Program-made: the position numbers and the translations under genes
DNA from: an uncultured Gemmatimonadaceae bacterium
GTDB lineage: Bacteria > Latescibacterota > UBA2968 > UBA8231
Direction of reading: 5' to 3'
Length of the DNA: 64,000 nucleotides
NCBI GenBank assembly: GCA_964456165.1
Contig: CAYWBJ010000424.1
Coordinates: 922-64,921, forward strand
Part shown: positions 28,698 to 64,000 of the stretch, piece by piece
Position numbering within the stretch: the first letter of the stretch is position 1
Layout of the letters: every line of letters starts with the position of its first letter
Notes under the pieces: model-generated
The model's database searches: none
Told to the model about the DNA's origin: nothing
Seen by the model: the letters and a program-made list of their open reading frames with translations, nothing else

Positions 28698-29444
28698 ATG
28701 TCAGCAGAACTCGACTACGGAACTATCATCACCGACCTCGACGAGGTAGGATTCCACATCGTCCCATCGGTCATTCCCGTGGAAAAAGCGGACGAAGCTC
28801 GCGCCGCTCTCGAGCAGCTTCTGGAAAAAGAGACCACCGCGCATGCGCTTGCCGAAAAGACGCAACGCGTGGGACGAATCGCCGTGAAGCATCCCATCTT
28901 TCTGGAGCTCATGACCCACGCAGCTATCGTAACCTTGTGGCGCAGATACCTCGGCGACGACGTGATATGCTCCACCTGGTCCGGCAACACGGTTTATCCC
29001 GGTGCAGCAGCCATCAACTGGCACGCGGACTACCCCTATTACTCCATCGTGCCGCCCTATCCACCCGGCCGCCTCGCAGGCCAGACGATATGGCTCCTCA
29101 ACGACTTGACCGAAGAGAACGGCGCCACCGCCATGCTCCCCGGGAGCCATCTCAAAGGCGAACCGCCGCCGCCGGAGCTCAAGCATAAGTGGATGGACGA
29201 AGGCCGGATCCTCACCGGCACCCGCGGAAGTGTCATCGTGATGAACGGTGCATCCTGGCACACCGCCCGCCCGAACCGAACAGGTGCAAGCCGCTCCGTC
29301 CTCCTCGGCATGTACATGCGCCCCTGGTTCATCCCGCTGGAAGACATGCGCGGCCAGTTGGCCGAATTGGAAAATCCATCCGAATTGGTACGCCATCTCA
29401 TGTGCGCCAACCAGCGCGTGCCGAAAAACGTTGGCGCCGCTTGA
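28698..29444 (+). CDS. PhyH-family Fe(II)/2-oxoglutarate dioxygenase (PhyH-1)
   Basis: MSAELDYGTIITDLDEVGFHIV... (alternative ATG 28683). NWHADYP (HxD), LPGSHLK, SWHTARPNRTGASR (distal His + Arg). Confidence 0.85.
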   Translation: MSAELDYGTIITDLDEVGFHIVPSVIPVEKADEARAALEQLLEKETTAHALAEKTQRVGRIAVKHPIFLELMTHAAIVTLWRRYLGDDVICSTWSGNTVYPGAAAINWHADYPYYSIVPPYPPGRLAGQTIWLLNDLTEENGATAMLPGSHLKGEPPPPELKHKWMDEGRILTGTRGSVIVMNGASWHTARPNRTGASRSVLLGMYMRPWFIPLEDMRGQLAELENPSELVRHLMCANQRVPKNVGAA

Positions 29445-29626
29445 GCCATCTGGCAGGAGCTGACATCCAGAGCTTTCGAGGTCGCGCGCCTGAGCCCGAC
29501 GGCGATCGCGCATAGAGAGCAGACCGTCTGCGCCATTTTGCCGATGGCTTCGATAGGGCGAAGACGAGGCTGGGGGCGAACAACACGGCCACCGAGGGAC
29601 CGGCTGTCGGCGAGAAAGGACGCCCG

Positions 29627-30514
29627 TCACCGCCTTCCTCCAGGTGGCAGGGCCCCCTGGGCGAACGGCTTCAGCATAAGGTAACAGACGCGCAGCACTG
29701 GGGTGGGAATTCCGCGCTCCCCGCCTCTGTTGACGACGTGGCCGATGAGATCCTCGAGCTCCAGGGGCCGGCCGGCTTCGAGATCCTTGAGCATGGAGGA
29801 GCGCCATGGAGATCCCTTCTGCTCGTCCAGAAAGGCCAGCACTGACTCCCCCGCCCCGGGTTCGATTGGAATGCCCTCGGCGGCGGCTACTTTTGCCGCC
29901 TCTTCGGCGCCCTCCCGCACCAGCTTCCTGAGTTCGGGTGATGTGGCGGTCTGACCGAGGTCGGCCCTGGCCGCCAGCCCGGTGCTCAACGCCGCGTACT
30001 GGACCAGCTTCTGCCACAACGGCACGCGAATATCGTCCGCCGCCGCCACGTCGAAACCGGCGCTTGCGAGCACCGAGCGCATCGCCTCCACCCTCGGCGT
30101 CACGGGACCACCTAGCTCTCCGATTGCATGAGGGGTGGAAGTCGCATACTCCAGCACGTGCCTGCGCTCCACTATTCCGGCCAGGCGCTCTCCCGCCGTC
30201 ACGCCGTTCTGCAGCGGGATTACGACGGTGTCCTCGCCGATTAGTGGCGCGATCTGCTCCGCTGCTTCCTCGAGCTGGTAGGTCTTCACGGCGAAGATGA
30301 CCGCATCGACGGGACCGACGGCAGCCGGATCCCTGGTCACCGTGAAAGCATCCGGTGGGATGACATTCGCTTCCCACTTGCCGCGCACACCGTCGCGTGC
30401 GATCTCGTCATAACGCCGCCCGCGGGCAATCAACGTAACGTCCTGGCCTGCCTTCAGGAGGGCGTAGCCGAAGTGGCTGCCGAACTCTCCTGCGCCCATG
30501 ACTGCAATCCTCAT
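29627..30514 (-). CDS. ketopantoate reductase family (PanE/ApbA) oxidoreductase
   Basis: MRIAVMGAGEFGSHFG Rossmann; AVKTYQ Lys; SSMLKDLEAGRPLELEDL C-terminal substrate motif. Confidence 0.85.
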   Translation of the reverse strand: MRIAVMGAGEFGSHFGYALLKAGQDVTLIARGRRYDEIARDGVRGKWEANVIPPDAFTVTRDPAAVGPVDAVIFAVKTYQLEEAAEQIAPLIGEDTVVIPLQNGVTAGERLAGIVERRHVLEYATSTPHAIGELGGPVTPRVEAMRSVLASAGFDVAAADDIRVPLWQKLVQYAALSTGLAARADLGQTATSPELRKLVREGAEEAAKVAAAEGIPIEPGAGESVLAFLDEQKGSPWRSSMLKDLEAGRPLELEDLIGHVVNRGGERGIPTPVLRVCYLMLKPFAQGALPPGGRR

Positions 30515-30672
30515 CCGTCACCCTCCGCGATAGGTGTTGCGCCGCATCTTGCGGTGGCGCCCTCTTGGCAGCAGAATTCCTACCGCCGTCGGTAACACGC
30601 AAAGCATCCATTCACCGGCCGGCAATTCGCCGTGGAGTGAACACAAATGCAACCCCCAGACAGCAACAATTG

Positions 30673-46603: not shown

Positions 46604-46750
46604 TTCAGCAACTCTCGCAGCAGACGTGGACAGACCAAGTTTGCGAAACCGAATAAGGTATGTCCTCTGCGCTTCCCGTCCACTAACTTGTGGATCTGCC
46701 GTTTGCATGCCGGCGACCTGCCGGCTGCCCAGCTTTGGAGGAACGTAGCG

Positions 46751-53191: not shown

Positions 53192-54460
53192 CTACCAGGT
53201 GGCGATCAGTTCGTCTAATGTAAGGTCCGGCATCTGGTGGTAGTGAGTGCGCAGCGGCCGGGTGTAGAAGTCGGGCGAAGACGCGGCCCCGGTGCCGCCC
53301 ATGAGGTTCCGGTGGACCTCGGTGTAGTGGACGTTGGAGCACTCCCGGTCGGCCGCCATCTGCGCCGTCAGCGGCGCGAAACGCTTTCCCAGTTCATCGG
53401 CCTCGGCCGGCGTGAAGCGGCCGCGCATGTCGGACCAGAAGTGCTCGCCGAAGCCGCCCTCGAAACCGCTGCGTTCCGCCTCCGAGAGCTCTGCGGCCCC
53501 GGTGCCGCAGAGACCGGCGACCTTCTCCGCCATGCGGCACAAATGGGCGACCGCCACCATGCGGCACGACACCTCCGGATGCGCCGCCGCCAACTCCCGA
53601 ACGAAGGCCGCGCCGTCCCGCTCCAGAGCAGTCCTGAATATCCGCTCGTACTGATCGCGGCACTGCATGGTCCAGGCCGCCTGCTGCTCGAACCATTCGC
53701 GTGCCGCCGGCGCCAGATGGCGGGTGAACTCCAGGTCCATGTTCCAGTGGGGATGGTGGCCGAACGAGGATATCTTGTCGAAGTCGTAGTACCCCATGTG
53801 GATGACGCGTCGCATGCGCGAGGTGTAGGGGCTGCCCTGGTGCTGCATGTAGGCGGCGTAGACGATGGCGTCACCCGCCTTCAGGTCGGCCTGGAAGGCG
53901 CCGGGCATCTCGCCCCTACAGTCGCGCAGTAGCTGCTCCTTGAGCTGTTCGCTGTCCGGGTTGGCATGGCTGCCCGGGATGACCCAGAACAGGTCGTCGT
54001 CGTAGAGCGCGACGTTCCACTGCACATACGGCGGGCCGTTGATCGCCAAGTCCCGCTGGACCCCGGCCAGCGGTGCCAGGTAGTTGGAGCAGTAGTCCCG
54101 GTGCCAGTCGGTGGCGCCGAAGTCCCAGACCGCGCTCACCATCAGCTCCAGGCTGCCGATGCCGGCGCGTTTTGCCCCCAGCAGCTCGGTGCTGACCCCC
54201 AGCGGCTTGCCGATGAACCACCCGGCCACATGCGCAGTCTCCGCGGTGACCAGGTCGTCGACCTTCACGCGCGGCTGCGCCGCGGCCTGCCAGGCGCCGC
54301 CGATGGGCTGGTCCGGTGTCCGCTCGCGCCGCGACTGCTCCTGGCTCAGCTGCACCAGCACGTCGAAGCCCAGGCGCAGCTCGTGTAGCTCGTCCGGTTC
54401 GAGAAAACCGCGGAGAATTAGAAAACCATCCCTCCCGAAGCGCTCATGGTCGAGTTGCAT
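53192..54460 (-). CDS. PhyH-family dioxygenase with ~170-aa helical C-terminal extension (PhyH-4)
   Basis: ATG 54460 (MQLDHERFGRDGFLILRGFL). DWHRDYC (HxD), IPGSHAN, YMQHQGSPYTSRMRR. Long extra C-terminus FTRHLAPAAREWFEQQ...DELIATW. Confidence 0.8.
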   Translation of the reverse strand: MQLDHERFGRDGFLILRGFLEPDELHELRLGFDVLVQLSQEQSRRERTPDQPIGGAWQAAAQPRVKVDDLVTAETAHVAGWFIGKPLGVSTELLGAKRAGIGSLELMVSAVWDFGATDWHRDYCSNYLAPLAGVQRDLAINGPPYVQWNVALYDDDLFWVIPGSHANPDSEQLKEQLLRDCRGEMPGAFQADLKAGDAIVYAAYMQHQGSPYTSRMRRVIHMGYYDFDKISSFGHHPHWNMDLEFTRHLAPAAREWFEQQAAWTMQCRDQYERIFRTALERDGAAFVRELAAAHPEVSCRMVAVAHLCRMAEKVAGLCGTGAAELSEAERSGFEGGFGEHFWSDMRGRFTPAEADELGKRFAPLTAQMAADRECSNVHYTEVHRNLMGGTGAASSPDFYTRPLRTHYHQMPDLTLDELIATW

Positions 54461-54602: not shown

Positions 54603-55877
54603 ATGAGCGATACGGTAGCGACCCAGTTGGCCATCCACGGCGGCCCGAAGGCCGTCACGACCAACCCCGGTGACCTCTTCGACTGGATGATCACCACCTC
54701 CAAGGACGAGGAGGCGGTACTCGAGGTCCTGCGGCGGGGGGCCATGTCCGCCTGGGACGTGACCCTGGAGTTCGAGCGTGAACTGGCCGCTTGGTTCGGC
54801 TCCGAGCACGCCCTCTGCTTCAACAACGGCACCCAGGCGATCCGCACCGCCATGTGGGCCTGCGGGGTGCACGCCGGCGACGAGATCATCTGCCAGAGCA
54901 TGACCTTCTGGGCCTCGGCGCTGCAGGTCTATTCGCTCGGCGGCACCGTCGTCTTCGCCGAGATGGACCCAGCCACACTGACCCTGGATCCGGAGGACGT
55001 CGAGCGCCGCATCACCGACCGGACGAAGGCCATCGTCTGCGTCCACTACTGCGGCTATCCCACCGACATGGACGCGATCATGGAGCTCGCCGCCCGGCGC
55101 CACATCATGGTGATCGAAGACGTCTCCCACGCCCAGGGCGGCCTCTACAAGGGCCGCAAGCTGGGCACCATCGGCCACGTCGGCGCCATGTCGATCATGT
55201 CGGAAAAATCACTGGCCTGCGGCGAGGGCGGCGTCCTCATCACCGGCGACGATCTGCTCCACCAGCGCGCCGTCGCCTTCGGCCATTACGAGAGGCCGGA
55301 CCTACTCACCAATTCCGAGCTGGCGCCGTTCGCCAAGCTGCCGATGGGTGGCTACAAGAATCGCATCCACCAGATGTCGGCCGCCGTCGGCCGCGTCCAG
55401 CTGCGCGCCTACGCCGACCGCATGGACGAAATCCAGCGAGCAATGAACCACTTCTGGGATCTGCTCGAGGGGGTGCCCGGCGTTCACGCGCACCGGCCGC
55501 CGGCCGCTTCCGGCAGCACGATGGGCGGCTGGTATTACGCCCACGGAATCTACGCCCCGGAGGAGCTGGGCGGCCTGCCCCTGAGTCGCTTCTGCGAGGC
55601 GCTGAACGCCGAAGGGGTTCCGGCGGCGGCCGGCGCCAACTTTCTGCTGCACCTGCATCCGATGCTCAACGACGCCGACGTCTACGGCCACGGGAAACCG
55701 ACCCGCATCGCCCACTCCGACCGCGACCTCCGGCAGCCGGCCGGCAGTCTGCCGGTATCCGAGTCCTTACCCGAGCGCACCTTCTCGGTGCCCTGGTTCA
55801 AGCACTACCGGCCGGATATAATCGCGGCTTACGCCGCCGGCGTGCGAAAGGTGGCAGAAGCGGCCGGCGAACTGTAG
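54603..55877 (+). CDS. DegT/DnrJ/EryC1/StrS-family PLP-dependent aminotransferase
   Basis: ATG 54603 with GGAG SD. AIHGGPKAV; NNGTQAI; EDVSHAQG; PLP-Lys context MSIMSEKSLACGEGG as in sugar/inositol aminotransferases. Confidence 0.85.
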   Translation: MSDTVATQLAIHGGPKAVTTNPGDLFDWMITTSKDEEAVLEVLRRGAMSAWDVTLEFERELAAWFGSEHALCFNNGTQAIRTAMWACGVHAGDEIICQSMTFWASALQVYSLGGTVVFAEMDPATLTLDPEDVERRITDRTKAIVCVHYCGYPTDMDAIMELAARRHIMVIEDVSHAQGGLYKGRKLGTIGHVGAMSIMSEKSLACGEGGVLITGDDLLHQRAVAFGHYERPDLLTNSELAPFAKLPMGGYKNRIHQMSAAVGRVQLRAYADRMDEIQRAMNHFWDLLEGVPGVHAHRPPAASGSTMGGWYYAHGIYAPEELGGLPLSRFCEALNAEGVPAAAGANFLLHLHPMLNDADVYGHGKPTRIAHSDRDLRQPAGSLPVSESLPERTFSVPWFKHYRPDIIAAYAAGVRKVAEAAGEL

Positions 55878-55911: not shown

Positions 55912-56700
55912 CTACTCGGCGGGCTGCAGGGCCCGCCAGCGTTCCCACCAGACGCGCACCTGGTCCGGCAGGGAAGATCCCACGTTGTCGGCCAGACGCC
56001 AGCGGAAACGCTCGTCTACCGTCTCTTCCACCGGCTCACCGGGATCGTGTTTGACCAGCCCGCCCGTCATCACCAGCCGCTCCTTCATGCTATCCGGCTT
56101 CCTGCCCCGGTGAATCGTGCCGCCATCCCAGATCAGCGTCTGCCCGCGCGCGAGGAAGACGTTGATCTGACCGCTGAGCTCCATCTTGCGGTCTTCGTAG
56201 AGCGCCCGGTGCTCTTCCCGGGTGCAGCAACGGCGCTGACTGTACGGCACCAGCCAGAGGCAGGGATCGTCGGTGAACGCCGTCTGCCACCGCAGCGCCT
56301 GCATCGGTCGGTTGAGAATCGCCATCTCCTCCTCGTAGCTCATCTCGGCCCTGTCCACCACATCCCGGTGCCAGCCCGTATCGTAGGCGTCCGACGCGTT
56401 GCGCAGGTGCACATAACCCAGGCGCAGGTCGGTGCCGAGAAACTCGTGCACATAGCGCAGCAGGGAAGGGGAGAGGAAGTGCTCGCCGAATACCGGCTCG
56501 CCGAACTCCGGGGCCAGCAGGCCGAAGATGGAACCAGCCTCCGGGCCTTTGCCCCACGGGTCCACCTCGCCGGAGCGCACTTTCTCCCAGACGTTCCACG
56601 ACGCTGTCTCCAGACGCTCGAAAAGCTCCGGCTCCAGGGCGTCCTCGACGATGGTGTATCCCTGACCCCAGAACTCCGCCATCACCCTTTCCATGCCCAT
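55912..56700 (-). CDS. PhyH-family dioxygenase (PhyH-5), tandem duplicate
   Basis: GWHRDV (HxD), TIHRGRK (distal His/Arg), but VPYSQRR where its neighbour has VPGSHRR. 5 nt after the stop of 56706-57488, with GGAG inside the upstream gene's end. Confidence 0.85.
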   Translation of the reverse strand: MGMERVMAEFWGQGYTIVEDALEPELFERLETASWNVWEKVRSGEVDPWGKGPEAGSIFGLLAPEFGEPVFGEHFLSPSLLRYVHEFLGTDLRLGYVHLRNASDAYDTGWHRDVVDRAEMSYEEEMAILNRPMQALRWQTAFTDDPCLWLVPYSQRRCCTREEHRALYEDRKMELSGQINVFLARGQTLIWDGGTIHRGRKPDSMKERLVMTGGLVKHDPGEPVEETVDERFRWRLADNVGSSLPDQVRVWWERWRALQPAE

Positions 56701-56705: not shown

Positions 56706-57488
56706 CTACTCCGGCTGCAGGGCGCGCCAGCGATCGTAGTACAGCTGCGACCGGGGCGGCAGCGAGTCCCTGATGTTGTCGGCCAGCTTCCAGCGGAAGC
56801 GCTCGTCCATCGCCATCTTCGGCTCTTGCGGATCATAGCGGAACAGGCCGATCGTCATGCTCAGCCGCTGCTCGAGGTCCGGGGGCTTGCGGCCGCGATG
56901 AACCGTGTAGCCGCTCCACAGCAGCATCTCTCCGCGTTTCAGGGGAACGTTGACCTGGGTCGAGATGTCCCGCTTGCCATCGAAGGCCAGCGCCTGGCGC
57001 TCCTCCTCGGTGCGGTATCTTCGATGGCTTCCCGGCACCAGCCAGAGGCAGGGATCGTCCACTAGCGCCACCTGGTACCGCAGGCCGATCATCGGCCGGC
57101 TCAGGAGCGCCATCTCCTCGTCGTAGGTGTTGTCCTTGGCCGGACCGAGGTCGCGATGCCAGCCGGTGTCGTAGCCGCCGTCGGCCGCCCACAGGTGGAC
57201 GTGGCCCATGCGCAGCTCCGGTCCCAGAAAGGCCTCGGCATAGCGCGTGATACCTTCGTAGGCCAGGATCTCGCCGAAGACCGGCTCGCCGAACTCGGGC
57301 GCCAGCAGGCCGAAGATGGAACCACCGTCCGGTCCGTTTCCGGCCACGTCGACAGCGCCCTCGCGGACTTGCGACCAGACGCTGCGGGCGCCGGCCTCGA
57401 GACGGTCGAGCATCCCCGGGTCGATGGCGTCGTCGACGATCACGTAGCCTTGGTCGAAGTACTCGGACTTGATCCTGGCGATGTCCAT
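56706..57488 (-). CDS. PhyH-family dioxygenase (PhyH-6), tandem duplicate
   Basis: ATG 57488 (MDIARIKSEYFDQGYVIVDDAI). GWHRDL, VPGSHRR, TVHRGRK. By eye about half of positions are identical to PhyH-5, including SIFGLLAPEFGEPVFGE and DERFRW.LADN. Confidence 0.85.
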   Translation of the reverse strand: MDIARIKSEYFDQGYVIVDDAIDPGMLDRLEAGARSVWSQVREGAVDVAGNGPDGGSIFGLLAPEFGEPVFGEILAYEGITRYAEAFLGPELRMGHVHLWAADGGYDTGWHRDLGPAKDNTYDEEMALLSRPMIGLRYQVALVDDPCLWLVPGSHRRYRTEEERQALAFDGKRDISTQVNVPLKRGEMLLWSGYTVHRGRKPPDLEQRLSMTIGLFRYDPQEPKMAMDERFRWKLADNIRDSLPPRSQLYYDRWRALQPE

Positions 57489-57607
57489 GTCGTTACCCGC
57501 GTCGCTCCATGCCCGTTGCCGCTGACCTAATCTGGACTCGAGCGGCCGGTTCTGCAACGGCGCGGTCCAGCGTCGGTCTACGCATTCATCTCCACTGCGT
57601 GCACCAG

Positions 57608-57727: not shown

Positions 57728-58591
57728 TTATTCCAGACCCGGCGGCACTCCGAAAGGTGGCCCGACGATGTGATGGCCGTCCGAGTTGACCACCGGCCAT
57801 CCCTGACCGCCCAGGTAGCCGAACTCCTCCCCCTTTCCACACAGCCAGCAGAACATCTCGGCGTTGTCGATGGTATCCCGGTGCTGCTGTCGGTAGGTCA
57901 GCGGCTTGCCGAAGCCGTAGTCAGCCGTGGCGAAATCGAATCCGTCGTCGCGGATCCAGTCTCGCTGCGGCGCAACAGTGCGGAAGTAGCTGTACTTGAG
58001 ATTGTGCCGCCTCCCGGCGCCCGTGGCCTCGCTGCGCCGGTGCCAGATCGAATAGACTGTCAGGATGACGCTGCCGGCCGGTGCCGAGGTGTAATGGGTT
58101 CCCCTTATGCTGCCGTAGTGACCCATGTAGTTCTGGGGGAGCTGGCCGAGCGTGTAGAGAAAATGGGAGCCCGGCAGCAGCTCGGTGGGCCCCATCTCCC
58201 GCGGCACATCCTGCGGATAGTAGAAGACCTGCAGATAGTTCAATGCGGGACCGACCTGGGAGGCTCCGTCGCGGTGCCAGTACTGTCTGGGCGCCGGCGC
58301 CTGCAGCCGGTGGTTACTCACCAGCACTGGTAAGCCGAAATCGCGGCCGAGAAGGGAACGTACCGCTCCGGCAACCGCGGGCGCGAGCAGGACGCGGTCG
58401 ACGAACCAGTCCTCAGCCAGCAGCTCAGCCGGCTCGCCCGCCCGGCGCGGCCGCCCGCTCTCCAGGAAATCGAGCGTGCGGCCGTTGATCTCGTCCGGCA
58501 CGACCCCCGGCAGTATCAGGAATCCCTGCTTGCAGAATTCCAGGACGTCGGAGTCACCGAGCGTCGGCTCGCAGTCGTGGCTCCTGATCAA
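57728..58591 (-). CDS. PhyH-family dioxygenase (PhyH-7), partner of small protein 58588-58959
   Basis: Start inferred by alignment with 63442 (MHTHDCEPT): TTG 58591 gives (M)IRSHDCEPTLGDSDVLEFC and overlaps the upstream TGA (gcTTGAtc); alternative GTG at 58603. YWHRDG (HxD), LPGSHFL, SIWHRRS. Confidence 0.8.
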   Translation of the reverse strand: MIRSHDCEPTLGDSDVLEFCKQGFLILPGVVPDEINGRTLDFLESGRPRRAGEPAELLAEDWFVDRVLLAPAVAGAVRSLLGRDFGLPVLVSNHRLQAPAPRQYWHRDGASQVGPALNYLQVFYYPQDVPREMGPTELLPGSHFLYTLGQLPQNYMGHYGSIRGTHYTSAPAGSVILTVYSIWHRRSEATGAGRRHNLKYSYFRTVAPQRDWIRDDGFDFATADYGFGKPLTYRQQHRDTIDNAEMFCWLCGKGEEFGYLGGQGWPVVNSDGHHIVGPPFGVPPGLE

Positions 58592-58959
58592 GCCGAACTC
58601 CACTTCTCCAGAATGAACTCGCATCCCAGGCCGTAGGTTCGTTTCTCGTCCAGGAGGATGGCCATCTCCGGGAACTTGATGATGCGCCACCCGTCGGCCA
58701 GCGCCTCGGCCACGGTCTGATAGGGCCAGTCGTCCGCATCGTCCGGCCCGTCCGCGAACTCGCCGTCCACGAACATGCTCATGCCGAGCACCTGGCTCGT
58801 CACCGACGTCTGCGCCGCCTGCAAGTAGAGCAGGTCCTGCCGTCCTTCTCCCAGCTGCGCGGCCAGCTCGCCGATGCGCCGGAGGCTCTCTTCCGCAAGC
58901 TCGTTGCGTCGCAGCTCATGTATGCAGCGGTCGACCTGCCTTGCAATCTGCTCTTTCAT
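58588..58959 (-). CDS. conserved small protein of unknown function (123 aa), copy 1
   Basis: MKEQIARQVDR...GRQDLLYLQAAQTSVTSQVLGMSMFVDGEFADGPDDADDWPYQTVAEALADGWRIIKFPEMAILLDEKRTYGLGCEFILEKWSSA. Homologous to 63052-63441. Stop overlaps the start of PhyH-7. Confidence 0.75.
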   Translation of the reverse strand: MKEQIARQVDRCIHELRRNELAEESLRRIGELAAQLGEGRQDLLYLQAAQTSVTSQVLGMSMFVDGEFADGPDDADDWPYQTVAEALADGWRIIKFPEMAILLDEKRTYGLGCEFILEKWSSA

Positions 58960-59120: not shown

Positions 59121-59918
59121 GTGATGACACAGGCAACCTCCGCGGGTGACCAGGTGCTGGATCGCGCCCGGTTCGAGGGACTCTCCCCACGGCAGCAGCT
59201 GGACTTCTACAACGAGAACGGCTTCCTCCTCATTCCGGAGGCGGTGTCGGCCGGGCAGATGCAGCGTATCGACAAGGAGCTCTCCGCCAGGGAGATCCCG
59301 CGCCGCTGGGACTACTGGGATGAATGGCCGGGGCCGGAGCTCGAAAGCCTGATCGCCAATCCCCGGCTCCTAGAGCCGCTGCACCTCTGTTACGGCGACG
59401 ACCTGCGCTTCTTCAAGTCGGTCTACACCGAATGGCGCGACCGGGTTGCCACCGAGCTGGAGAACCGGCGGCAGCGCCTGCACCGCGACTACACCCCCGA
59501 GGCGACCGACGGTGACTACCGCAACAGCTGCGCCAGCTGGGTCAACGTCGGCCACTACTTCATCGACCTCGACGTCGACGAGGGCCCCCTCTGGGTCGTG
59601 CCGGGCAGCCACCGCCTGGCCTGGACCGGCCAGCGTGAGTTCGAGGAATTCGGCGACCAGGCCCGCATGGTCCTGGCGCGCGCCGGAGACGCGGTGATGT
59701 TCCACTGTCTGACCCTGCATGCCGGGGGTGCCATGGCCTCGGGCAACCCGCGGCCCAGCGTCTTCCAGTCTTACCGGGTCGGCTGGGCGGCGCCGCTCGA
59801 CACCGTGCCCGAGTGGCCGGAGGAAATCGTGCGCCAGGCGCCGCCGGAGCTCCGAAAGCTGCTCGAGGGCCTGAACGACGGAACCAGATTCGGAGTCCAC
59901 GGCATGATCCGGGCCTGA
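59121..59918 (+). CDS. PhyH-family dioxygenase (PhyH-8)
   Basis: GTG 59121 / ATG 59124. RLHRDY (HxD), VPGSHRL, LTLHAGGAMASGNPR. Sigma70-like promoter upstream. Confidence 0.85.
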   Translation: MMTQATSAGDQVLDRARFEGLSPRQQLDFYNENGFLLIPEAVSAGQMQRIDKELSAREIPRRWDYWDEWPGPELESLIANPRLLEPLHLCYGDDLRFFKSVYTEWRDRVATELENRRQRLHRDYTPEATDGDYRNSCASWVNVGHYFIDLDVDEGPLWVVPGSHRLAWTGQREFEEFGDQARMVLARAGDAVMFHCLTLHAGGAMASGNPRPSVFQSYRVGWAAPLDTVPEWPEEIVRQAPPELRKLLEGLNDGTRFGVHGMIRA

Positions 59919-59920: not shown

Positions 59921-61810
59921 GTGACCGTTCGCGCCCTCGTCATCGGCCTCCCCCTGGCCCTGATCGTCGGCGCCCTGGGCCCCGTCCTCTCCCTCTACGT
60001 CCAGGGACCCAACTCCAGTGCCTATTTCACCAGCCAGATAGCCCACTTCATCCTGTTCCTTCTGGTGGCGGTGGTCACCGTCGCGCTCGGCCGCCTGCGG
60101 CGCTCCTGGGCGTTCAGCAAAGCCGAGCTGGTGGTCCTGTTCGTCCTCATGAGCCTGGCCAACGGCACCCACATCATCGTCCACCACTGGGTACCTCTGG
60201 TCGCGAGCCCATTCTACTACGCCCGCACCGAGAACAATTGGCTGCACGAGATCGTCCCCTACATCCCCTCCTGGCTCGTGCCCCATCACGTCGAGGGGAT
60301 ACGTGCATTTTTCGAGGGCAGCGAGCAGGGCGGCGGCATCGCCTGGCACGTCTGGATCGATCCCATCCTGGGCTGGATGCCCCTCTTCCTGTCGCTCCCG
60401 GTAATCACCATCTGCGCGATGGTGATCCTGCGTCGGCGTTGGGTGGAGCAGGAGCGGCTGATCTATCCGGTGGTCCAGCTTTCCCTGTCGATGGTGCAGC
60501 GGGACGACCGCGGCTCGCTCGTTCACCCGTTCCTGCGGCGGGGAGCCATGTGGCTGGGATTCGCCGTCCCCGTGATCACGGGCGCCATCGTGGGCCTGCA
60601 CGCCTTCTTCCCCTTCCTCCCCAAGGTCGAGGTCACCTACGCCGTCCCCCTCTTCAAGCGGATGTACCTCAGCTTCGCCACCCTCGGATTCTTCTTCCTG
60701 ATCCAGCGGGAGGTAGCCTTCGGCCTGTGGGTCTTCACCCTGCTCAACCACCTTCAGAACGCCGTCTACGACGAGCTAGGCTGGGCGACCGAGGCCGAGC
60801 CGGTGATCAGCGCCTGGAGCTACGGCACCCCCAGCCTCGTACATCAGGGGATGGGTGCGATGATCGTCCTCGTCCTCGGCGGCCTCTGGGTCGGGCGCGA
60901 ACACCTGGCCAACGTCTTCCGCAAGGCTTTCCGCGGCGCCGACAACGTCCGGGACGACGATGAGATCCTCTCGTACCGCGGAGCCGTGTTCGGACTTCTG
61001 CTGGGCACGGTGGTGATGGCAGTCTGGCTCTGGCGCATGGGCATTCCGGCCATCGGGGTCGTCGCCCTGATGTTCTTTCTCGCCGTCATCTTCCTCGCCC
61101 TGACCCGGGTCATCGTCGAGGGCGGGGTCGCCGTGATCTACACCCCGATGGTGGCCGAGGACGCGGTCATGTCGGCCGTCGGCACCTCGGTCTTCGGACC
61201 CAGCGGCCTAATGGGTCTGACCTTCACCCGTATTTTCGGCAACGACCTGCTCAACTTCGTCATGCCCCACGCCGCCAACGGGCTCAAGCTCGCCGGCGAG
61301 ATCGACCGTCGCCGCCGCCCCCTGTTCTGGGCCATGCTCGCGGCGACGCTGCTGGGCATGTTCGGCGCCCTCTGGATGCTCCTGCACCTGGCCTCCACCT
61401 ACGGCGCCATCAACATGAGCCGCATCCACTTCGTCTGGTTCCCCAACTACCTCGGCGACTACACCGCCGCCCGCATCGCCCAGCCCACCGGACCCAACGC
61501 CCTGGGATGGTTCCATACCGGCGTCGGCGGCGCCGTCATGGCACTGCTCATGCTCGCCCGCCGGTTCTGGGGCTGGTGGCCGCTACACCCGATCGGCTTT
61601 CCCATCAGCTCCACCTTTCGCTGGATGGCGTTCAACGCCTTTCTCGCCTGGATGATCAAGGGGCCGATCCTCAAATACGGGGGCGTCTCCATGTACAAAG
61701 CGGTGCGCCCGTTTTTCCTCGGGCTCATCCTCGGCCACTTCGCGATCTACGGGGTTTTCTGGATCGTCAACGGGCTGACCGGGGTGACCGGCAACTGGCT
61801 CTTCCCCTGA
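59921..61810 (+). CDS. large polytopic inner-membrane protein of unknown family (~629 aa, about 12-14 predicted TM segments)
   Basis: GTG 59921, 2 nt after the PhyH-8 stop, within ORF 59813-61810. Successive hydrophobic stretches (VRALVIGLPLALIVGALGPVL, IAHFILFLLVAVVTVALG, LGWMPLFLSLPVITICAMVIL, AVFGLLLGTVVMAVWLW, VVALMFFLAVIFLAL, LFWAMLAATLLGMFGALWMLL, FFLGLILGHFAIYGVFWIV ...). No transporter-family motif recognised. Confidence 0.8.
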   Translation: MTVRALVIGLPLALIVGALGPVLSLYVQGPNSSAYFTSQIAHFILFLLVAVVTVALGRLRRSWAFSKAELVVLFVLMSLANGTHIIVHHWVPLVASPFYYARTENNWLHEIVPYIPSWLVPHHVEGIRAFFEGSEQGGGIAWHVWIDPILGWMPLFLSLPVITICAMVILRRRWVEQERLIYPVVQLSLSMVQRDDRGSLVHPFLRRGAMWLGFAVPVITGAIVGLHAFFPFLPKVEVTYAVPLFKRMYLSFATLGFFFLIQREVAFGLWVFTLLNHLQNAVYDELGWATEAEPVISAWSYGTPSLVHQGMGAMIVLVLGGLWVGREHLANVFRKAFRGADNVRDDDEILSYRGAVFGLLLGTVVMAVWLWRMGIPAIGVVALMFFLAVIFLALTRVIVEGGVAVIYTPMVAEDAVMSAVGTSVFGPSGLMGLTFTRIFGNDLLNFVMPHAANGLKLAGEIDRRRRPLFWAMLAATLLGMFGALWMLLHLASTYGAINMSRIHFVWFPNYLGDYTAARIAQPTGPNALGWFHTGVGGAVMALLMLARRFWGWWPLHPIGFPISSTFRWMAFNAFLAWMIKGPILKYGGVSMYKAVRPFFLGLILGHFAIYGVFWIVNGLTGVTGNWLFP

Positions 61811-61941
61811 CGCCGGTCGATGGACCCGGCTCTATTCGGTTCGGGCCAACACCCACGCGCGTTGGCGCACCGGAGGCGGCTCCTCTTGTCACCCTCCGCA
61901 GAGTCCGGCCAAGTCCTGAGTTGGCACCCCGGAGATGTCAA

Positions 61942-61970
61942 TTGGCGACGGCCATGGTGGGCGCTATTTT
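61942..61970 (+). promoter_or_regulatory. candidate sigma70-type promoter for PhyH-9
   Basis: TTGGCG (61942-61947), 17-nt spacer, TATTTT (61965-61970). Favours GTG 62009 as the start codon. Confidence 0.3.
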
Positions 61971-62008
61971 CCTAATCGCCGCCTTTGCAGAAACCGATCG
62001 GAGCGCCC

Positions 62009-62773
62009 GTGACCTCCTACATCGACGAGTGTGTTGAGCAGGTCCTGACCCGCGGCCACTGCCTGCTGAAAGGTCGCTTCCCCGCCCAGGCGGTCGAGTC
62101 CTGCCGCGAGGGTTTCATGCCGCTGCTGGAACAAGTCGGCCAGCGAATTCCCGAGGGCAATCGCGGCCTTTGCCGCTGGGCGATCGGCCTGCCCTTCGCT
62201 CCCCCTTTCTATCATTCCGCCTTCTTCACCGACGCACTGGTAAACGAGATCTGCCGCCGGATCCTCGGCGACGGCATGCACGTGGTCTACTACGGCACCG
62301 ACACGCCGGTGAAGGGCTCCGATTTCCAGAAGGTACATGCCGACATTCCCTTCCCCTTCCCGGAGGAGCCGGGCATCCGGCACCCACCCCTGACTCTGTC
62401 GGTACGCTTCACCTTCGGTGCCATGACGATGGCGAACGGTCCCTTCGAGGTGGCACCAGGCACCCAGTACCTGCCCCGGCAAGAGACTATCGCCAAGCTG
62501 GAAGCCGGCGAGATCCCGCTCGAGCCGCTGCTGCTGGACGTGGGCGATGTGATCGTCTCCGATGCCCGGACACCGCACCGCGGCACACCGAACCACACGG
62601 ACGAGCCGCGGCCCTTCGCCGTCATCGTCTACAACCGCGATTTCTATTTCCAGGAGCGCTGGGAAGAGGGCCTCGAGGCCAACGACAACCCCGTGTTGCT
62701 GGAATCGTTCTACCGGTCGCTGTCTGAAGAGGAGCAGCGCCTGCTCAGGCGCTTGCCGCGCACCCAGTGCTGA
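62009..62773 (+). CDS. PhyH-family dioxygenase (PhyH-9)
   Basis: ORF opens at TTG 61985; GTG 62009 has a GGAG SD 5 nt upstream and lies downstream of a sigma70-like promoter. KVHADIP (HxD), APGTQYL (variant of PGSH), TPHRGTPNHTDEPR. Confidence 0.8.
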   Translation: MTSYIDECVEQVLTRGHCLLKGRFPAQAVESCREGFMPLLEQVGQRIPEGNRGLCRWAIGLPFAPPFYHSAFFTDALVNEICRRILGDGMHVVYYGTDTPVKGSDFQKVHADIPFPFPEEPGIRHPPLTLSVRFTFGAMTMANGPFEVAPGTQYLPRQETIAKLEAGEIPLEPLLLDVGDVIVSDARTPHRGTPNHTDEPRPFAVIVYNRDFYFQERWEEGLEANDNPVLLESFYRSLSEEEQRLLRRLPRTQC

Positions 62774-63051
62774 AGCGCGGCCGGGCCGGCGCTCCCATGT
62801 CTGATCTCATGGCGATGGTATCTTGGATACGGGGCGGCAGAATCGGGAGCAGATTGAATTCCCGGCATCACCCTGCACGGGTGCCGGTCAGCGGCAGCAG
62901 CATGGGAGATCGGCGTCCCGATCGCGCCATCGGCCTGCCAATCCTGTCAGCTTGTTGGGGATCCGGGTGATCGCTTTATTCCTCTACCGTTACGGCATCC
63001 TGCCTGCGCGCCGGCTTCCGCTCGTTTCGCAACGGTCTTGAAGGCAACGAT

Positions 63052-63441
63052 ATGAATCTAAATCAGCGGCAACAGATCGTCGTCGACTGTTTGGAACACC
63101 TAGCGAAGGGGACGCTCACCGTCGATGCCTTGAGTGGTGCGTTCGAACAGGTGCTGTCAGAAAACGGCCGACGTCAGGACTTGCTCTACCTGCAGACGAA
63201 CGAGAGCGCCCTGCATTCGGGGGTGATCGGCATGAAGATGCTGGTCAACGGTGAGTACGCCGCCGACCCCGCGCCTGCCGGTCCCAAGCCCACTCCCGAT
63301 GATGGCTGGCCCTACGCGACCGTGATCGACGCGATCAGAGACGGCTGGCGGGTGATCAGCTTCCCCAACATGGCCCTTAGCCTGGACGAGAATCGCACGT
63401 ATGGCCTGGGTTTCGAGTTCATTCTGGAGAGGTGGCGCTAG
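63052..63441 (+). CDS. conserved small protein of unknown function (129 aa), copy 2
   Basis: MNLNQRQQIVVD...RRQDLLYLQTNESALHSGVIGMKMLVNGEYAADP...DDGWPYATVIDAIRDGWRVISFPNMALSLDENRTYGLGFEFILERWR. GAAGG SD. TAG stop directly abuts the ATG of the next gene (TAGATG). Confidence 0.75.
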   Translation: MNLNQRQQIVVDCLEHLAKGTLTVDALSGAFEQVLSENGRRQDLLYLQTNESALHSGVIGMKMLVNGEYAADPAPAGPKPTPDDGWPYATVIDAIRDGWRVISFPNMALSLDENRTYGLGFEFILERWR

Positions 63442-64000
63442 ATGCATACCCACGACTGTGAGCCAACCCTGACAGACCGCCAGGTCATCGAGTTCTGTCG
63501 CGAGGGCTTCCTGACGCTCGAAGGAGCAGTGGAGGCAGGAGTAACCGACCGCGCCATCGAGTATTGCCATGCGCACCCGGAGGATCGCGAGCTCTCGGTC
63601 CTGCTCGAAGAGGACTGGTTCGTCGACGGAATTCTGCTGGCCCCGGCCGTCGCCGGGGCCGTTCGCAGTCTCCTCGGGGCCGGCTTCGGCCTCTCGCCGT
63701 TCGTCGCCAACCACATCGGCGAGTGCCCCGATCCCGATCCGTTGGGCTGGCACGTGGACGGCGGCAACGTGCACACCTTCGCCCTCAACTACCTGCAGGT
63801 CTTCTGCCTGCCCCAGGACACCACTGTCGAGATGGGCCCGACCGAGATCCTGCCCGGCAGCCACTTCCTGCTCGGGCAAAGCGCCCTGGTCTCCCGCTAC
63901 GGCGCCATCCGCGGCACCCGGATGTGCACCGGCCCGGCCGGCACCGTTTACATCACCTGTTATCCGATCTGGCACCGCCGCTACCGGGCGACTGCCACCG
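63442..64000 (+). CDS. PhyH-family dioxygenase (PhyH-10), 5' part; runs off window end
   Basis: MHTHDCEPTLTDRQVIEFCREGFLTLEG...LGWHVDGG (HxD), LPGSHFL, PIWHRRY. Collinear with PhyH-7 (LLAPAVAGAVRSLLG, LNYLQVF). No stop before 64000. Confidence 0.8.
   Translation, partial: MHTHDCEPTLTDRQVIEFCREGFLTLEGAVEAGVTDRAIEYCHAHPEDRELSVLLEEDWFVDGILLAPAVAGAVRSLLGAGFGLSPFVANHIGECPDPDPLGWHVDGGNVHTFALNYLQVFCLPQDTTVEMGPTEILPGSHFLLGQSALVSRYGAIRGTRMCTGPAGTVYITCYPIWHRRYRATAT

What the first reader, a model, noticed from the sequence alone, without database searches (positions are those of the whole stretch)
28698..64000. Ten PhyH-family Fe(II)/2-oxoglutarate dioxygenase paralogues in 36 kb, seven of them in the last 11 kb
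The PhyH-type genes, by start coordinate, are:
- 28698 (+)
- 40491 (-)
- 45719 (-)
- 53192 (-)
- 55912 (-)
- 56706 (-)
- 57728 (-)
- 59121 (+)
- 62009 (+)
- 63442 (+)

Each shows the ordered motifs [W]H.D ... PGSH-like ... H..R/N, apart from the variants noted separately. That is roughly one gene in five or six. They are diverse (several subtypes), so this is an old, maintained expansion rather than a recent amplification. They are interleaved with sugar-acid, aminotransferase and hydrolase genes. Characterised family members hydroxylate or oxidatively deaminate small molecules, including sugars (for example KanJ on kanamycin, EctD on ectoine). A battery of oxygenases tailoring or de-decorating glycan-derived substrates is therefore plausible but undescribed.
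Basis: partly seen in the sequence, partly recalled or inferred. Interest (0 to 1): 0.7.

Follow-up and report, generated by a model that had tools for sequence, protein, structure and literature searches.

The report
Dense cluster of PhyH oxygenase genes
An uncultured open-ocean bacterium (Candidatus Latescibacterota) packs ten, really eleven, very different iron/2-oxoglutarate oxygenase genes of the PhyH family into 36 kb among transport, sugar-acid and amide-hydrolase genes; the cluster is real and conserved in a relative, but what the enzymes oxidise is unknown.

Summary
All ten ORFs hit only Pfam PF05721 (PhyH). Nine pass the curated cut-off. The tenth (J) is cut by the window end and stays sub-threshold at full length, but it is 53% identical to G, whose predicted structure matches PhyH-type oxygenases. 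An eleventh copy (K) lies just past the window. No copy occurs in the first 28.6 kb.

The copies are 20-30% identical, apart from three old pairs at about 53-54% (E/F, G/J, B/K). A relative about 70% identical keeps one-to-one orthologues of D, E, F, H, I, J and K in 21 kb. This is an old, maintained battery.

All copies lack signal peptides. They sit beside a TonB-dependent receptor, a DUF6785 polytopic membrane protein, sugar-acid dehydratases, reductases, C-N hydrolases, an ATP-dependent lactamase-like pair and a DegT aminotransferase.

The most likely role is cytoplasmic oxidative "unlocking" (hydroxylation, demethylation or deamination) of imported decorated small molecules. The substrates are inferred, not shown.

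None of the copies belongs to a characterised orthologue group. The nearest solved relatives are KanJ (I, A) and HygX (B, K, which carry HygX's H-x-G…E-x3-H variant).

PhyH expansion was already described in Poribacteria, so "undescribed" is overstated. Interest is moderate.

The parts
28683..29444 (+). PhyH copy A (253 aa; alternative ATG at 28698). Motifs WHAD113, PGSH153, WHTA192.
   Evidence: Pfam PF05721 81.6 bits. Nearest solved relative is KanJ, E 3e-7. Motif positions.
40491..41408 (-). PhyH copy B (305 aa), HygX-type variant with H145-N-G ... E228-x3-H232. Last gene of the minus-strand run C - TonB receptor - CN_hydrolase - SDR - B.
   Evidence: Pfam 40.3 bits. In the family alignment A1, H145, G193, H195 and E228 are invariant. 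Profile against PDB: HygX 6e-21, next hit 6e-8. 54% identical to K.
41613..42395 (-). Short-chain dehydrogenase/reductase.
   Evidence: adh_short_C2, 215.8 bits.
42467..43303 (-). Carbon-nitrogen hydrolase (nitrilase/amidase superfamily).
   Evidence: PF00795, 127 bits.
43328..45655 (-). TonB-dependent outer-membrane receptor with an N-terminal CarboxypepD_reg domain.
   Evidence: Plug, TonB_dep_Rec_b-barrel and CarbopepD_reg_2 domains.
45719..46603 (-). PhyH copy C (294 aa), first gene of the run that includes the TonB receptor.
   Evidence: Pfam 74.8 bits. Start chosen at the ATG at 46603. Nearest solved relatives are GriE Leu hydroxylase (1.4e-7) and EctD.
46703..47776 (+). UxuA-like mannonate-dehydratase family protein.
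   Evidence: PF03786, 157 bits. NCBIfam score is below the cut-off.
48065..49204 (-). Enolase-superfamily acid-sugar dehydratase (galactonate-dehydratase-like).
   Evidence: MR_MLE_C/N domains. NF010624, 201 bits against a cut-off of 311.
49436..50377 (+). Aldo/keto reductase.
   Evidence: PF00248, 104.7 bits.
50468..51520 (+). Enolase-superfamily dehydratase (L-rhamnonate-dehydratase-like).
   Evidence: MR_MLE domains. NF011968, 232.8 bits against a cut-off of 393.
51585..53069 (+). M81/MlrC-family metallopeptidase.
   Evidence: PF07364 292.8 bits and PF07171 179 bits.
53192..54460 (-). PhyH copy D (422 aa), with a C-terminal extension of about 200 aa that has no family match.
   Evidence: Pfam 38.2 bits. 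The C-terminal part has no Pfam hit. Three D-type copies occur in relative L016. No solved relative by sequence.
54603..55877 (+). DegT/DnrJ/EryC1-type PLP aminotransferase (sugar/aminocyclitol type).
   Evidence: PF01041, 235.5 bits. No NCBIfam equivalog is reached. Its adjacency to E/F is kept in L016.
55912..56700 (-). PhyH copy E (262 aa). Has PYSQ where the other copies have PGSH.
   Evidence: Pfam 35.1 bits. 54% identical to F. The exact protein is found on 11 marine metagenome contigs.
56706..57488 (-). PhyH copy F (260 aa; other gene callers start it at 57557). Ancient tandem partner of E.
   Evidence: Pfam 51.9 bits. 217 homologues. The orthologue in L016 is 74% identical.
57728..58603 (-). 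PhyH copy G (291 aa), a divergent and widely conserved subfamily.
   Evidence: Pfam 23.2 bits. AF2 model matches FtmOx1/HygX/KanJ at E about 1e-10. 955 homologues at 55-63% identity across phyla.
58588..58959 (-). x123, a small uncharacterised partner protein. Its 3' end overlaps the start of G by 16 nt.
   Evidence: 47% identical to x129. No Pfam hit.
59121..59918 (+). PhyH copy H (265 aa), ending 2 nt before the DUF6785 gene.
   Evidence: Pfam 63.9 bits. Nearest solved relative is DhiD, 1.5e-5.
59921..61810 (+). DUF6785/DUF6784 polytopic membrane protein (at least 10 hydrophobic segments). Candidate inner-membrane permease.
   Evidence: PF20581 362.6 bits and PF20580 79.1 bits. Hydropathy analysis. 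No solved relative. Homologues in Latescibacterota MAGs lie near PhyH genes in 3 of 4 loci.
62009..62773 (+). PhyH copy I (254 aa). Has PGTQ in place of PGSH.
   Evidence: Pfam 44.7 bits. KanJ at 2.5e-12 is the best solved-structure hit of any copy.
63052..63441 (+). x129, a small uncharacterised partner protein. Its stop codon abuts the ATG of J.
   Evidence: 223 homologues, none named and none with a Pfam domain. AF2 pLDDT 85, with no PDB fold match. The small-protein + G-type pair is conserved in L021 and L022.
63442..64000 (+). PhyH copy J (303 aa when complete; cut by the window end). Followed outside the window by copy K (287 aa, HygX-type) and a HyuA/HyuB ATP-dependent lactamase-like pair.
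   Evidence: Pfam 18.1 bits truncated and 16.5 bits full-length. 53% identical to G. Downstream genes were read in L012.

Best explanation
The region is a catabolic gene island of an uncultured pelagic marine Candidatus Latescibacterota bacterium.

It encodes eleven cytoplasmic Fe(II)/2-oxoglutarate oxygenases of the PhyH family. These fall into eight sequence subtypes, three of them present as ancient pairs.

The oxygenase genes are interleaved with four kinds of partner:
- **Uptake genes:** a TonB-dependent receptor and a DUF6785/6784 polytopic membrane protein flanked on both sides by oxygenase genes.
- **Sugar-acid processing enzymes:** enolase-superfamily and UxuA dehydratases, plus SDR, AKR and other reductases.
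- **C-N bond hydrolases:** a nitrilase-superfamily enzyme, M81/MlrC, and a caprolactamase-like HyuA/HyuB pair.
- **An aminotransferase** of the DegT type.

Each oxygenase would use Fe(II), O2 and 2-oxoglutarate to hydroxylate an unactivated C-H bond of an imported small molecule. When that carbon carries an O-methyl or amino group, the product collapses spontaneously. The net result is demethylation or deamination, as shown for PHYHD1/FJS and for KanJ.

The battery would therefore strip or convert decorations on sugars, amino sugars, sugar acids or cyclic amides, so that the neighbouring dehydratases, reductases and hydrolases can finish the breakdown.

**Shown:**
- family membership;
- catalytic motifs;
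- cytoplasmic location (no signal peptides);
- age and conservation of the cluster;
- gene neighbourhood.

**Inferred:**
- catabolic direction;
- substrate classes;
- reaction outcome;
- a transport role for DUF6785.
For: **Family and catalytic residues**
- All copies hit PF05721 and no other family.
- HxD ... H motifs occur with consistent spacing in nine copies. B and K carry the HygX-type H-x-G ... E-x3-H.
- The G model has the PhyH-type fold.

**Location**
- The N-termini read carry no signal peptide.

**Age and maintenance**
- Paralogues are 20-30% identical.
- The relative L016 keeps intact orthologues of D, E, F, H, I, J and K at 62-77% identity, together with DegT, the small partner protein and HyuA.
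- The same cluster, more than 99% identical, appears in Station ALOHA, Tara Oceans and other ocean metagenomes.

**Catabolic neighbours**
- Four MR_MLE enolase-superfamily genes, two UxuA, rhaM, two Amidohydro_2, aldehyde dehydrogenase, AKR, SDR, CN_hydrolase, MlrC, M20 and a TonB receptor.
- The run H-DUF6785-I-x129-J-K-HyuA-HyuB is tightly spaced on one strand.

**Chemical precedent**
- KanJ is the nearest solved relative of I (2.5e-12) and A.
- HygX is the nearest solved relative of B and K (6e-21). Both enzymes act on amino-sugar or oligosaccharide substrates.
- PhyH-family enzymes, including one from Poribacteria, remove the O-methyl group from ribose (PMC12709175).

**Generality**
- 20 of 32 marine metagenome loci of at least 7 kb that carry an E/F homologue hold further PhyH genes.
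Against: - No copy reaches any curated orthologue model. The best is ectoine hydroxylase at 25 bits or less against a cut-off of 336.
- Identity to any characterised enzyme is 25% or less, so substrate class cannot be read from homology.
- Solved structures over-represent antibiotic-tailoring enzymes, which biases which relative comes out as 'nearest'.
- No non-PhyH neighbour recurs next to E/F homologues across 39 loci. More distant relatives carry a single copy. Operon-level functional coupling is therefore supported only within this lineage.
- No regulator or sugar kinase ties the genes into one pathway.
- Expression and activity are untested.
- The genome-wide PhyH frequency of this organism is unknown.
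Confidence: 0.5

Rival explanations
1. The battery belongs to the breakdown of nitrogen-rich non-sugar compounds: lactams or hydantoins, modified amino acids or peptides, and osmolytes such as ectoine. In this reading the oxygenases hydroxylate rings or side chains before or after ring opening by the ATP-dependent HyuA/HyuB lactamase and the amidases.
For: - The module I-x129-J-K is followed directly by caprolactamase-like HyuA/HyuB in both the window lineage and L016.
- CN_hydrolase, MlrC/M81, M20, Amidohydro_2 and a DMFA2-like remnant lie in the window.
- C's nearest solved relatives are a leucine hydroxylase and ectoine hydroxylase.
- In L021 the small-protein + G-type pair sits beside a peptide-type ABC transporter.
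Against: - HyuA/HyuB reach only about half the caprolactamase cut-off.
- The window is dominated by sugar-acid enzymes.
- The ectoine hydroxylase model is far from matched.
- The DegT-type aminotransferase and the KanJ/HygX-like copies point to sugar-like substrates.
- This rival overlaps with the best explanation rather than excluding it.
Confidence: 0.25
2. The cluster is biosynthetic. The oxygenases would tailor an aminoglycoside-, orthosomycin- or other oligosaccharide-like natural product or a cell-surface glycan, with DegT adding amino groups and DUF6785 exporting the product.
For: - The nearest solved relatives (KanJ, HygX, AviO1, SnoN, DhiD, FtmOx1) are all tailoring enzymes of natural products.
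- DegT-type aminotransferases are typical of such pathways.
Against: - Pfam scans of every called gene in the window found no glycosyltransferase, NDP-sugar synthase or dehydratase, 2-deoxy-scyllo-inosose synthase, PKS or NRPS.
- The neighbours are catabolic: a TonB uptake receptor, acid-sugar dehydratases and an aldehyde dehydrogenase.
- The paralogues are scattered among unrelated modules.
- The cluster is broken up by IS elements in the relative without loss of genes.
Confidence: 0.08
3. The copies perform the functions already known for the family in bacteria: alpha-oxidation of phytanoyl-CoA-like branched lipids, or hydroxylation of phosphonates (PhnY type) to acquire phosphorus.
For: - The family name.
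- Kamke et al. assigned PhnY function to two poribacterial copies.
- SAR202 papers invoke phytanoyl-CoA dioxygenase for branched alkanes.
Against: - No 2-hydroxyacyl-CoA lyase, beta-oxidation gene or PhnZ HD-phosphohydrolase is in the window.
- Human PHYH appears only at E>=4e-3, and only for H.
- The PhnY-type model scores 15.5 bits against a cut-off of 500.
Confidence: 0.03
4. Most copies are decaying or catalytically dead duplicates with no current function.
For: - E (PYSQ) and I (PGTQ) deviate in the PGSH-like motif. B and K lack the canonical acidic ligand.
- A DMFA2-like gene remnant next to B shows that gene decay does occur in this region.
Against: - All ORFs are intact.
- Metal-binding residues are present. 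The B/K variant is the functional HygX arrangement and is invariant across its family.
- Orthologues are intact in a relative about 70% identical.
- The few strain differences are mostly synonymous, for example D with 5-6 synonymous and 0 non-synonymous changes.
Confidence: 0.03

Closest known systems
PhyH-domain expansion in Candidatus Poribacteria (Kamke et al. 2014, PMC3909097)
   Same: - A marine heterotrophic candidate phylum with a very large, very diverse set of PF05721 genes (more than 1.9% of genes; 305 sequences in 193 clusters at 60% identity), almost all of unknown function.
- Homologues of the G-type copy and of the small partner protein are annotated in Poribacteria MAGs.
   Different: - A different phylum (Latescibacterota).
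- That paper reported genome-wide frequency, not physical clustering. Here 8 copies lie in 13 kb with conserved local order, next to transport and catabolic genes.
- The genome-wide frequency here is unknown.
KanJ, kanamycin B dioxygenase (PDB 6s0r, 7cl2)
   Same: - PhyH-family Fe/2OG enzyme acting on an amino sugar.
- Best solved-structure hit for I (2.5e-12) and A (3e-7).
- Its oxidative deamination followed by ketoreduction would fit the many reductases nearby.
   Different: - Only distant similarity (about 50 bits).
- KanJ is biosynthetic, in Streptomyces.
- No kanamycin-type pathway genes are present here.
HygX, orthoester-forming oxygenase of hygromycin B biosynthesis (PDB 4xc9, 4xca, 4xcb)
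   Same: - B and K share its unusual metal site, H-x-G ... E-x3-H, with the acidic ligand relocated.
- The profile of their family hits HygX at 6e-21, 13 orders of magnitude better than any other solved protein.
   Different: - Pairwise similarity is weak (E 5e-4).
- In the profile alignment the B/K His does not align exactly with HygX's H-G-G.
- The context is catabolic, not an orthosomycin cluster.
- The reaction is unknown.
FJS/PHYHD1 2'-O-methyl-nucleoside demethylases (Stonkus et al. 2025, PMC12709175)
   Same: PF05721 enzymes, including one from Poribacteria, that remove an O-methyl group from a sugar (ribose) as formaldehyde. This is a direct precedent for sugar de-decoration by the family.
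   Different: None of the eleven copies is close to them. The best match is A against the Poribacteria enzyme, at 24% identity.
Paralogue expansions in SAR202 (Landry 2017, PMC5395668; Saw 2020, PMC6946804)
   Same: Open-ocean heterotrophs with large families of divergent oxidative enzymes and enolase-superfamily paralogues, interpreted as tools for chemically diverse or recalcitrant dissolved organic matter. The window also has four enolase-superfamily genes.
   Different: - Different enzyme families are expanded there (flavin monooxygenases rather than PhyH).
- A different phylum.

Membership tests
Pfam PF05721 PhyH (phytanoyl-CoA dioxygenase family of Fe(II)/2OG oxygenases) | Match to the family HMM above the curated gathering score (22 bits) | tested here: met
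   - A, B, C, D, E, F, G, H and I score 23.2-81.6 bits. K scores 22.6 bits.
- J fails, at 18.1 bits truncated and 16.5 bits full-length.
- Sources.
Pfam PF05721 PhyH (phytanoyl-CoA dioxygenase family of Fe(II)/2OG oxygenases) | 2-His-1-carboxylate facial triad (HxD/E ... H) in the right order and spacing | tested here: met
   - Present in A, C, D, E, F, G, H, I and J, with spacing of about 40 + 40 residues.
- B and K have the known variant H-x-G ... E-x3-H.
Pfam PF05721 PhyH (phytanoyl-CoA dioxygenase family of Fe(II)/2OG oxygenases) | Double-stranded beta-helix fold resembling solved family members | tested here: met
   - Tested only for G, the weakest in-window Pfam hit above the cut-off. 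The model (pLDDT 84.8) matches FtmOx1, HygX, SptF, TlxI, KanJ and AviO1 at E 3e-11 to 7e-10, probability 1.00.
- J is covered by its 53% identity to G.
Pfam PF05721 PhyH (phytanoyl-CoA dioxygenase family of Fe(II)/2OG oxygenases) | Fe(II)- and 2-oxoglutarate-dependent oxidation of a substrate | not testable with these tools
   Needs enzyme assays.
HygX-type subfamily (relocated acidic ligand) | H-x-G in place of HxD/E, with the acidic ligand supplied by E-x3-H | tested here: met
   - B has H145-N-G and E228-A-L-T-H232. K has H-N-G and E-G-T-T-H.
- H145 and E228 are invariant and H232 is at least 90% conserved in 24 family members.
- The motif definition comes from PMC13374393.
HygX-type subfamily (relocated acidic ligand) | Closer to HygX than to other solved PhyH-type enzymes | tested here: met
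   The family profile hits HygX at 6.1e-21. The next solved protein, DhiD, is at 5.8e-8.
HygX-type subfamily (relocated acidic ligand) | Oxidative cyclisation (orthoester formation) on an oligosaccharide | not testable with these tools
   No orthosomycin pathway genes are in the window.
Ectoine hydroxylase EctD/ThpD (TIGR02408) | Score above the equivalog cut-off (336.5 bits) | tested here: not met
   The best scores are 25.3 bits (C), 21.6 bits (A) and 20.8 bits (H).
PhnY-type phosphonate hydroxylases | Match to the equivalog model and an adjacent PhnZ HD-phosphohydrolase | tested here: not met
   I scores 15.5 bits against a cut-off of 500. No HD-domain gene is found in the window.
FJS/PHYHD1 2'-O-methyl-nucleoside demethylases | Close sequence relationship to the tested enzymes | tested here: not met
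   The best match is A against the active Poribacteria enzyme, at 24% identity over 216 aa. The other copies are weaker.
Polysaccharide utilisation locus (SusC/SusD type) | Adjacent SusC-like TonB receptor and SusD-like lipoprotein, with secreted glycan-degrading enzymes | tested here: not met
   - A TonB receptor is present, but it is flanked by PhyH copy C and a CN_hydrolase.
- No SusD, sulfatase or lyase is found.
- The BNR_2 and GH-like proteins lack signal peptides.

The most novel reading that the evidence does not exclude
The D-to-K core (window 53-64 kb and just beyond) may encode a previously undescribed multi-oxygenase catabolic pathway for a class of decorated marine organic compounds, for example O-methylated or aminated deoxy-sugars, aminocyclitol-like molecules or cyclic amides.

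It would include three new components:
- a new two-component oxygenase, made of a small partner protein of unknown fold plus the G/J-type PhyH enzyme (the pair is conserved in two distant genomes, one a Planctomycetes MAG);
- HygX-type enzymes recruited to degradation;
- the DUF6785/6784 membrane protein as a new kind of importer.
Probability: 0.2. Interest if true: 0.7.

Novelty: new member of a known kind. Interest (0 to 1): 0.4.

Why it matters
**Relevance to marine carbon cycling.** Much of marine dissolved organic matter is made of sugars carrying methyl, amino, acyl or deoxy decorations that block ordinary pathways. Which enzymes remove these decorations is largely unknown.

**What this locus offers.**
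- It holds eleven divergent, conserved and probably active Fe/2OG oxygenases.
- The organism is cosmopolitan in the open ocean: the same locus is found in Station ALOHA and Tara Oceans assemblies.
- The oxygenase genes sit beside uptake and sugar-acid genes.
- That makes it a compact, directly clonable panel for finding such activities.

**Testable leads.**
- The widely conserved pair of a small protein and a G-type oxygenase.
- The HygX-type metal site appearing in a catabolic setting.
- DUF6785 as a candidate transporter.

**If instead the enzymes turn out ordinary,** the locus remains a clear example that PhyH expansion is not confined to Poribacteria.

Tried and rejected
- **Further copies in the window.** A custom HMM run against all six-frame ORFs found no copy in 1-28.6 kb.
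- **Curated orthologue assignment.** NCBIfam gave nothing usable for any copy.
- **Sequence search of solved structures.**
  - D and G gave no hits.
  - F gave only SnoN at 0.005.
- **Selection from strain variants.** All contigs are more than 99% identical, so there are too few changes for pN/pS.
- **Extending the scaffold at the window start to sample the background.**
  - Only short contigs were returned.
- **Recurrent neighbours of E/F homologues in 39 loci.** No conserved partner was found beyond the close relative.
- **Fold of the small partner protein.** The model is confident, but there is no PDB match (best E 0.19).
- **DUF6785.** There is no literature on it and no solved relative.
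- **Orthology to 2'-O-methyl-nucleoside demethylases.** Rejected.
- **Reading the region as a biosynthetic cluster or a canonical PUL.** Considered and rejected on gene content.

Full report
**Observation**

The window has about 65% G+C. I called genes with a codon-usage model, which gave about 56 genes.

Nine exceed the curated cut-off of 22 bits:

| Copy | Bits |
|---|---|
| A | 81.6 |
| C | 74.8 |
| H | 63.9 |
| F | 51.9 |
| I | 44.7 |
| B | 40.3 |
| D | 38.2 |
| E | 35.1 |
| G | 23.2 |

J is cut by the window end and scores 18.1 bits. Its full-length form, read from another contig of the same population, scores 16.5 bits. J is nevertheless 53% identical to G. An AlphaFold model of G, built on 42 homologues (pLDDT 84.8, pTM 0.87), matches FtmOx1, HygX, SptF, TlxI, KanJ and AviO1 at E about 1e-10 with probability 1.00.

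An HMM built from the copies finds nothing else in the window. On longer contigs of the same population it does find an eleventh copy, K (287 aa, Pfam 22.6 bits), directly after J.

The distribution is strongly uneven:
- 0 of 24 genes before 28.6 kb;
- 10 of 32 genes after it (Fisher p=0.003);
- 7 of 11 genes in the last 10.8 kb (p=1.4e-4).

Even at the 2% gene frequency reported for Poribacteria, ten or more in 56 genes has probability 1.6e-7.

**Source organism**

- The exact E protein occurs on 11 metagenome contigs. These include a 104-kb scaffold from Station ALOHA samples and several Logan runs. Other window proteins lie on Tara Oceans contigs.
- All these contigs are more than 99% identical to the window.
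- The window's own record is an 85.6-kb NCBI contig. A member of the same 90% cluster as the window's UxuA is named Candidatus Latescibacterota bacterium.
- The closest genomes found with the DUF6785 protein are Latescibacterota MAGs, at 52% and 38% identity.
- A TonB receptor with a CarboxypepD_reg domain and a protein with a type-IX-secretion C-terminal domain fit the FCB group.

**Anatomy of the copies**

Pairwise identities are 20-30%, except for three pairs:
- E/F, 54%, adjacent;
- G/J, 53%;
- B/K, 54%.

That gives eight subtypes.

Nine copies carry HxD, then a PGSH-like motif about 40 residues later, then a distal His about 40 residues after that. E has PYSQ and I has PGTQ at the middle motif.

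B and K differ from the rest:
- They have H-N-G, followed by E-x3-H.
- In an alignment of 24 family members drawn from a full-library search (769 representatives at E<=1e-3), H145, G193, H195 and E228 are invariant and H232 is nearly so.
- This is the arrangement described for HygX, where the acidic ligand is relocated (PMC13374393).
- The family profile hits HygX at 6e-21, against 6e-8 for the next solved protein.

None of the copies has an N-terminal signal peptide (sequences), so they should be cytoplasmic.

**Age and conservation**

A relative, an 860-kb contig (L016), carries 9-10 PhyH-type ORFs in 20.8 kb.
- They are one-to-one orthologues of D (in three copies, one shorter), E, F, H, I, J and K, at 62-77% identity. 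Their second-best matches are the corresponding paralogues at 45-55%.
- The local orders K-J-small protein-I (next to HyuA) and F-E-DegT are kept, although IS elements have inserted between modules.
- The duplications therefore predate the split of the two lineages, and the genes have been maintained.

More distant genomes with E/F homologues at 65% and 54% identity have a single copy nearby.

A scan of JGI metagenome contigs with an E/F alignment returned 63 loci.
- Of the 32 loci at least 7 kb long, 20 hold at least one further PhyH-type ORF.
- That is 30 extra copies in 397 kb, across G+C values of 0.41-0.66.
- Small groups of PhyH paralogues are thus common in marine bacteria. This window and L016 are the extreme cases.

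**Neighbourhood**

Minus-strand run:
- C
- TonB-dependent receptor
- carbon-nitrogen hydrolase
- SDR
- B

Between 46.7 and 53 kb:
- a UxuA-like dehydratase
- two enolase-superfamily dehydratases (galactonate- and rhamnonate-dehydratase-like, both below equivalog cut-offs)
- an aldo/keto reductase
- an M81/MlrC peptidase

Then, in order:
- D
- a DegT-type aminotransferase
- E and F
- G with its small partner x123
- on the plus strand, H, a DUF6785/6784 protein with at least ten hydrophobic segments, I, the small partner x129, and J
- outside the window, K and a HyuA/HyuB pair most similar to caprolactamase, at about half the cut-off

The first 28 kb holds:
- two more enolase-superfamily genes
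- a second UxuA
- L-rhamnose mutarotase
- two Amidohydro_2 proteins (a family that includes sugar lactonases)
- an aldehyde dehydrogenase
- other reductases

From established knowledge of these families, this is the gene content of non-phosphorylative deoxy-sugar and sugar-acid catabolism.

The window contains no glycosyltransferase, sugar-nucleotide enzyme, SusD, sulfatase or polysaccharide lyase.

**What the enzymes may do**

None of the copies matches a curated orthologue model. Nearest solved relatives by sequence:

| Copy | Nearest solved relative | E-value |
|---|---|---|
| I | KanJ | 2.5e-12 |
| A | KanJ | 3e-7 |
| B, K (family profile) | HygX | 6e-21 |
| C | Leu hydroxylase GriE, then EctD | 1.4e-7 (GriE) |
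| H | DhiD | 1.5e-5 |
| F | SnoN | 5e-3 |
| D, G | none | - |

None is close to the 2'-O-methyl-nucleoside demethylases, of which one is a Poribacteria enzyme. The best match is 24% identity.

The best-supported reading is therefore general. A set of cytoplasmic oxygenases hydroxylates imported small molecules. When the attacked carbon bears O-methyl or amino groups, the net result is demethylation or deamination. The products feed the neighbouring dehydratases, reductases and hydrolases.

Sugar-like substrates are favoured by:
- the sugar-acid genes;
- the DegT-type aminotransferase;
- the KanJ- and HygX-like copies.

Cyclic amides or amino-acid derivatives are favoured by:
- the lactamase-like pair directly downstream of J and K;
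- the several amidases.

These two readings are not exclusive, and I cannot separate them with the tools available.

A biosynthetic role, lipid alpha-oxidation, phosphonate use and gene decay are each poorly supported (see rival explanations).

**Comparison with what is known**

- Kamke et al. (2014) found PF05721 to be the most abundant domain family in Poribacteria. They reported more than 1.9% of genes, 305 sequences in 193 clusters, and mostly unknown function.
- SAR202 papers describe analogous paralogue expansions of other oxidative enzyme families in ocean heterotrophs.
- Full-text searches found no paper linking Latescibacterota with PhyH. A genome paper on sponge Latescibacterota does not mention the family.
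- The finding is thus another lineage showing a known phenomenon. What it adds is the tight, conserved physical clustering and the side observations below.

**Side observations**

- x123 and x129 are 47% identical. Each is translationally coupled to a G/J-type oxygenase.
- Their family has 223 unnamed members without a Pfam domain, in Planctomycetes, Poribacteria and Abditibacteriaceae MAGs.
- The pair of small protein and G-type oxygenase is kept in a Planctomycetes MAG and in a 7.8-Mb genome, and is absent from a third locus.
- The small protein's confident model has no fold match in the PDB.
- The G-type subfamily is unusually conserved, at 55-63% identity across phyla with 955 hits. This suggests one defined substrate.

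**Verdict**

- The family assignment and the 'old, maintained' claim are supported.
- The glycan-tailoring interpretation is plausible but unproven, and the claim of novelty is overstated.
- Interest is moderate (0.4).
- Novelty: a new member of a known kind.

Noticed in passing
window 58588-58959 (-) and 63052-63441 (+): Two small proteins (123 and 129 aa) are 47% identical and have no Pfam domain. Each sits directly upstream of, and is translationally coupled to, a G/J-type PhyH gene. The family has 223 unnamed members. The pair of small protein and G-type oxygenase recurs in a Planctomycetes MAG (L022) and in a 7.8-Mb genome (L021). The AlphaFold model (pLDDT 85) has no PDB fold match.
   Followed up: yes
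window 40491-41408 (-); K at L012 9982-10845: B and K replace the HxD...H triad by H-x-G...E-x3-H. This is the relocated-carboxylate metal site known from HygX, and it resembles the sites of halogenases. The motif is invariant across 24 family members, and HygX is by far the closest solved protein.
   Followed up: yes
window 39703-40235 (-): This looks like the remnant of a DMFA2-like (N,N-dimethylformamidase beta-subunit-like) gene. An apparent N-terminal stretch lies in ORF 39792-40235; I recognised it from memory of the family, with no database hit. About 80 C-terminal residues (PF20254 positions 313-374 of 374) lie in ORF 39703-40002, in a different frame. That suggests a large internal deletion plus a frameshift.
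   Followed up: partly
window 10207-11352, 23043-24242, 48065-49204 (-), 50468-51520; 25224-26198 (-), 46703-47776: A second paralogue family is enriched: four enolase-superfamily (MR_MLE) genes and two UxuA-type dehydratases in 64 kb. They occur together with rhaM, two Amidohydro_2 proteins and an aldehyde dehydrogenase. This gene content is typical of non-phosphorylative deoxy-sugar and sugar-acid catabolism and parallels the enolase expansions described in SAR202.
   Followed up: partly
window 59921-61810 (+): A DUF6785/DUF6784 protein of 629 aa has at least 10 hydrophobic segments. It is flanked on both sides by PhyH genes. There is no literature on it and no solved relative. Homologues in Latescibacterota MAGs have a PhyH gene within 10 kb in 3 of 4 loci, which makes it a candidate permease.
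   Followed up: partly
window 4398-6074, 11369-13357 (-), 13196-14863, 16232-18190, 33367-34821, 38440-39633 (-): Six large ORFs (397-662 aa) have good coding statistics and no signal peptide, and none reaches a significant Pfam or NCBIfam match. Homologues (about 31% identity) of the 11369 and 16232 proteins recur next to E/F-type PhyH genes in four metagenome loci (L053, L055, L071, L072).
   Followed up: partly
L016 (ENA ERZ26166982 contig_23, 750878-771663): In the relative's version of the cluster, ISL3 and DDE_Tnp_1 transposase genes lie between the PhyH modules. The D-type copy is triplicated and the DegT gene is split into two ORFs. The cluster is therefore being rearranged there, and the DUF6785 gene is not within the 21 kb.
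   Followed up: partly
L005 4096-6780 (strain variant of window about 59.9-62.8 kb): One population variant has a 6-nt indel in the DUF6785 gene. Its copy I is shortened to 196 aa with a split alignment, so not every strain keeps I intact.
   Followed up: no
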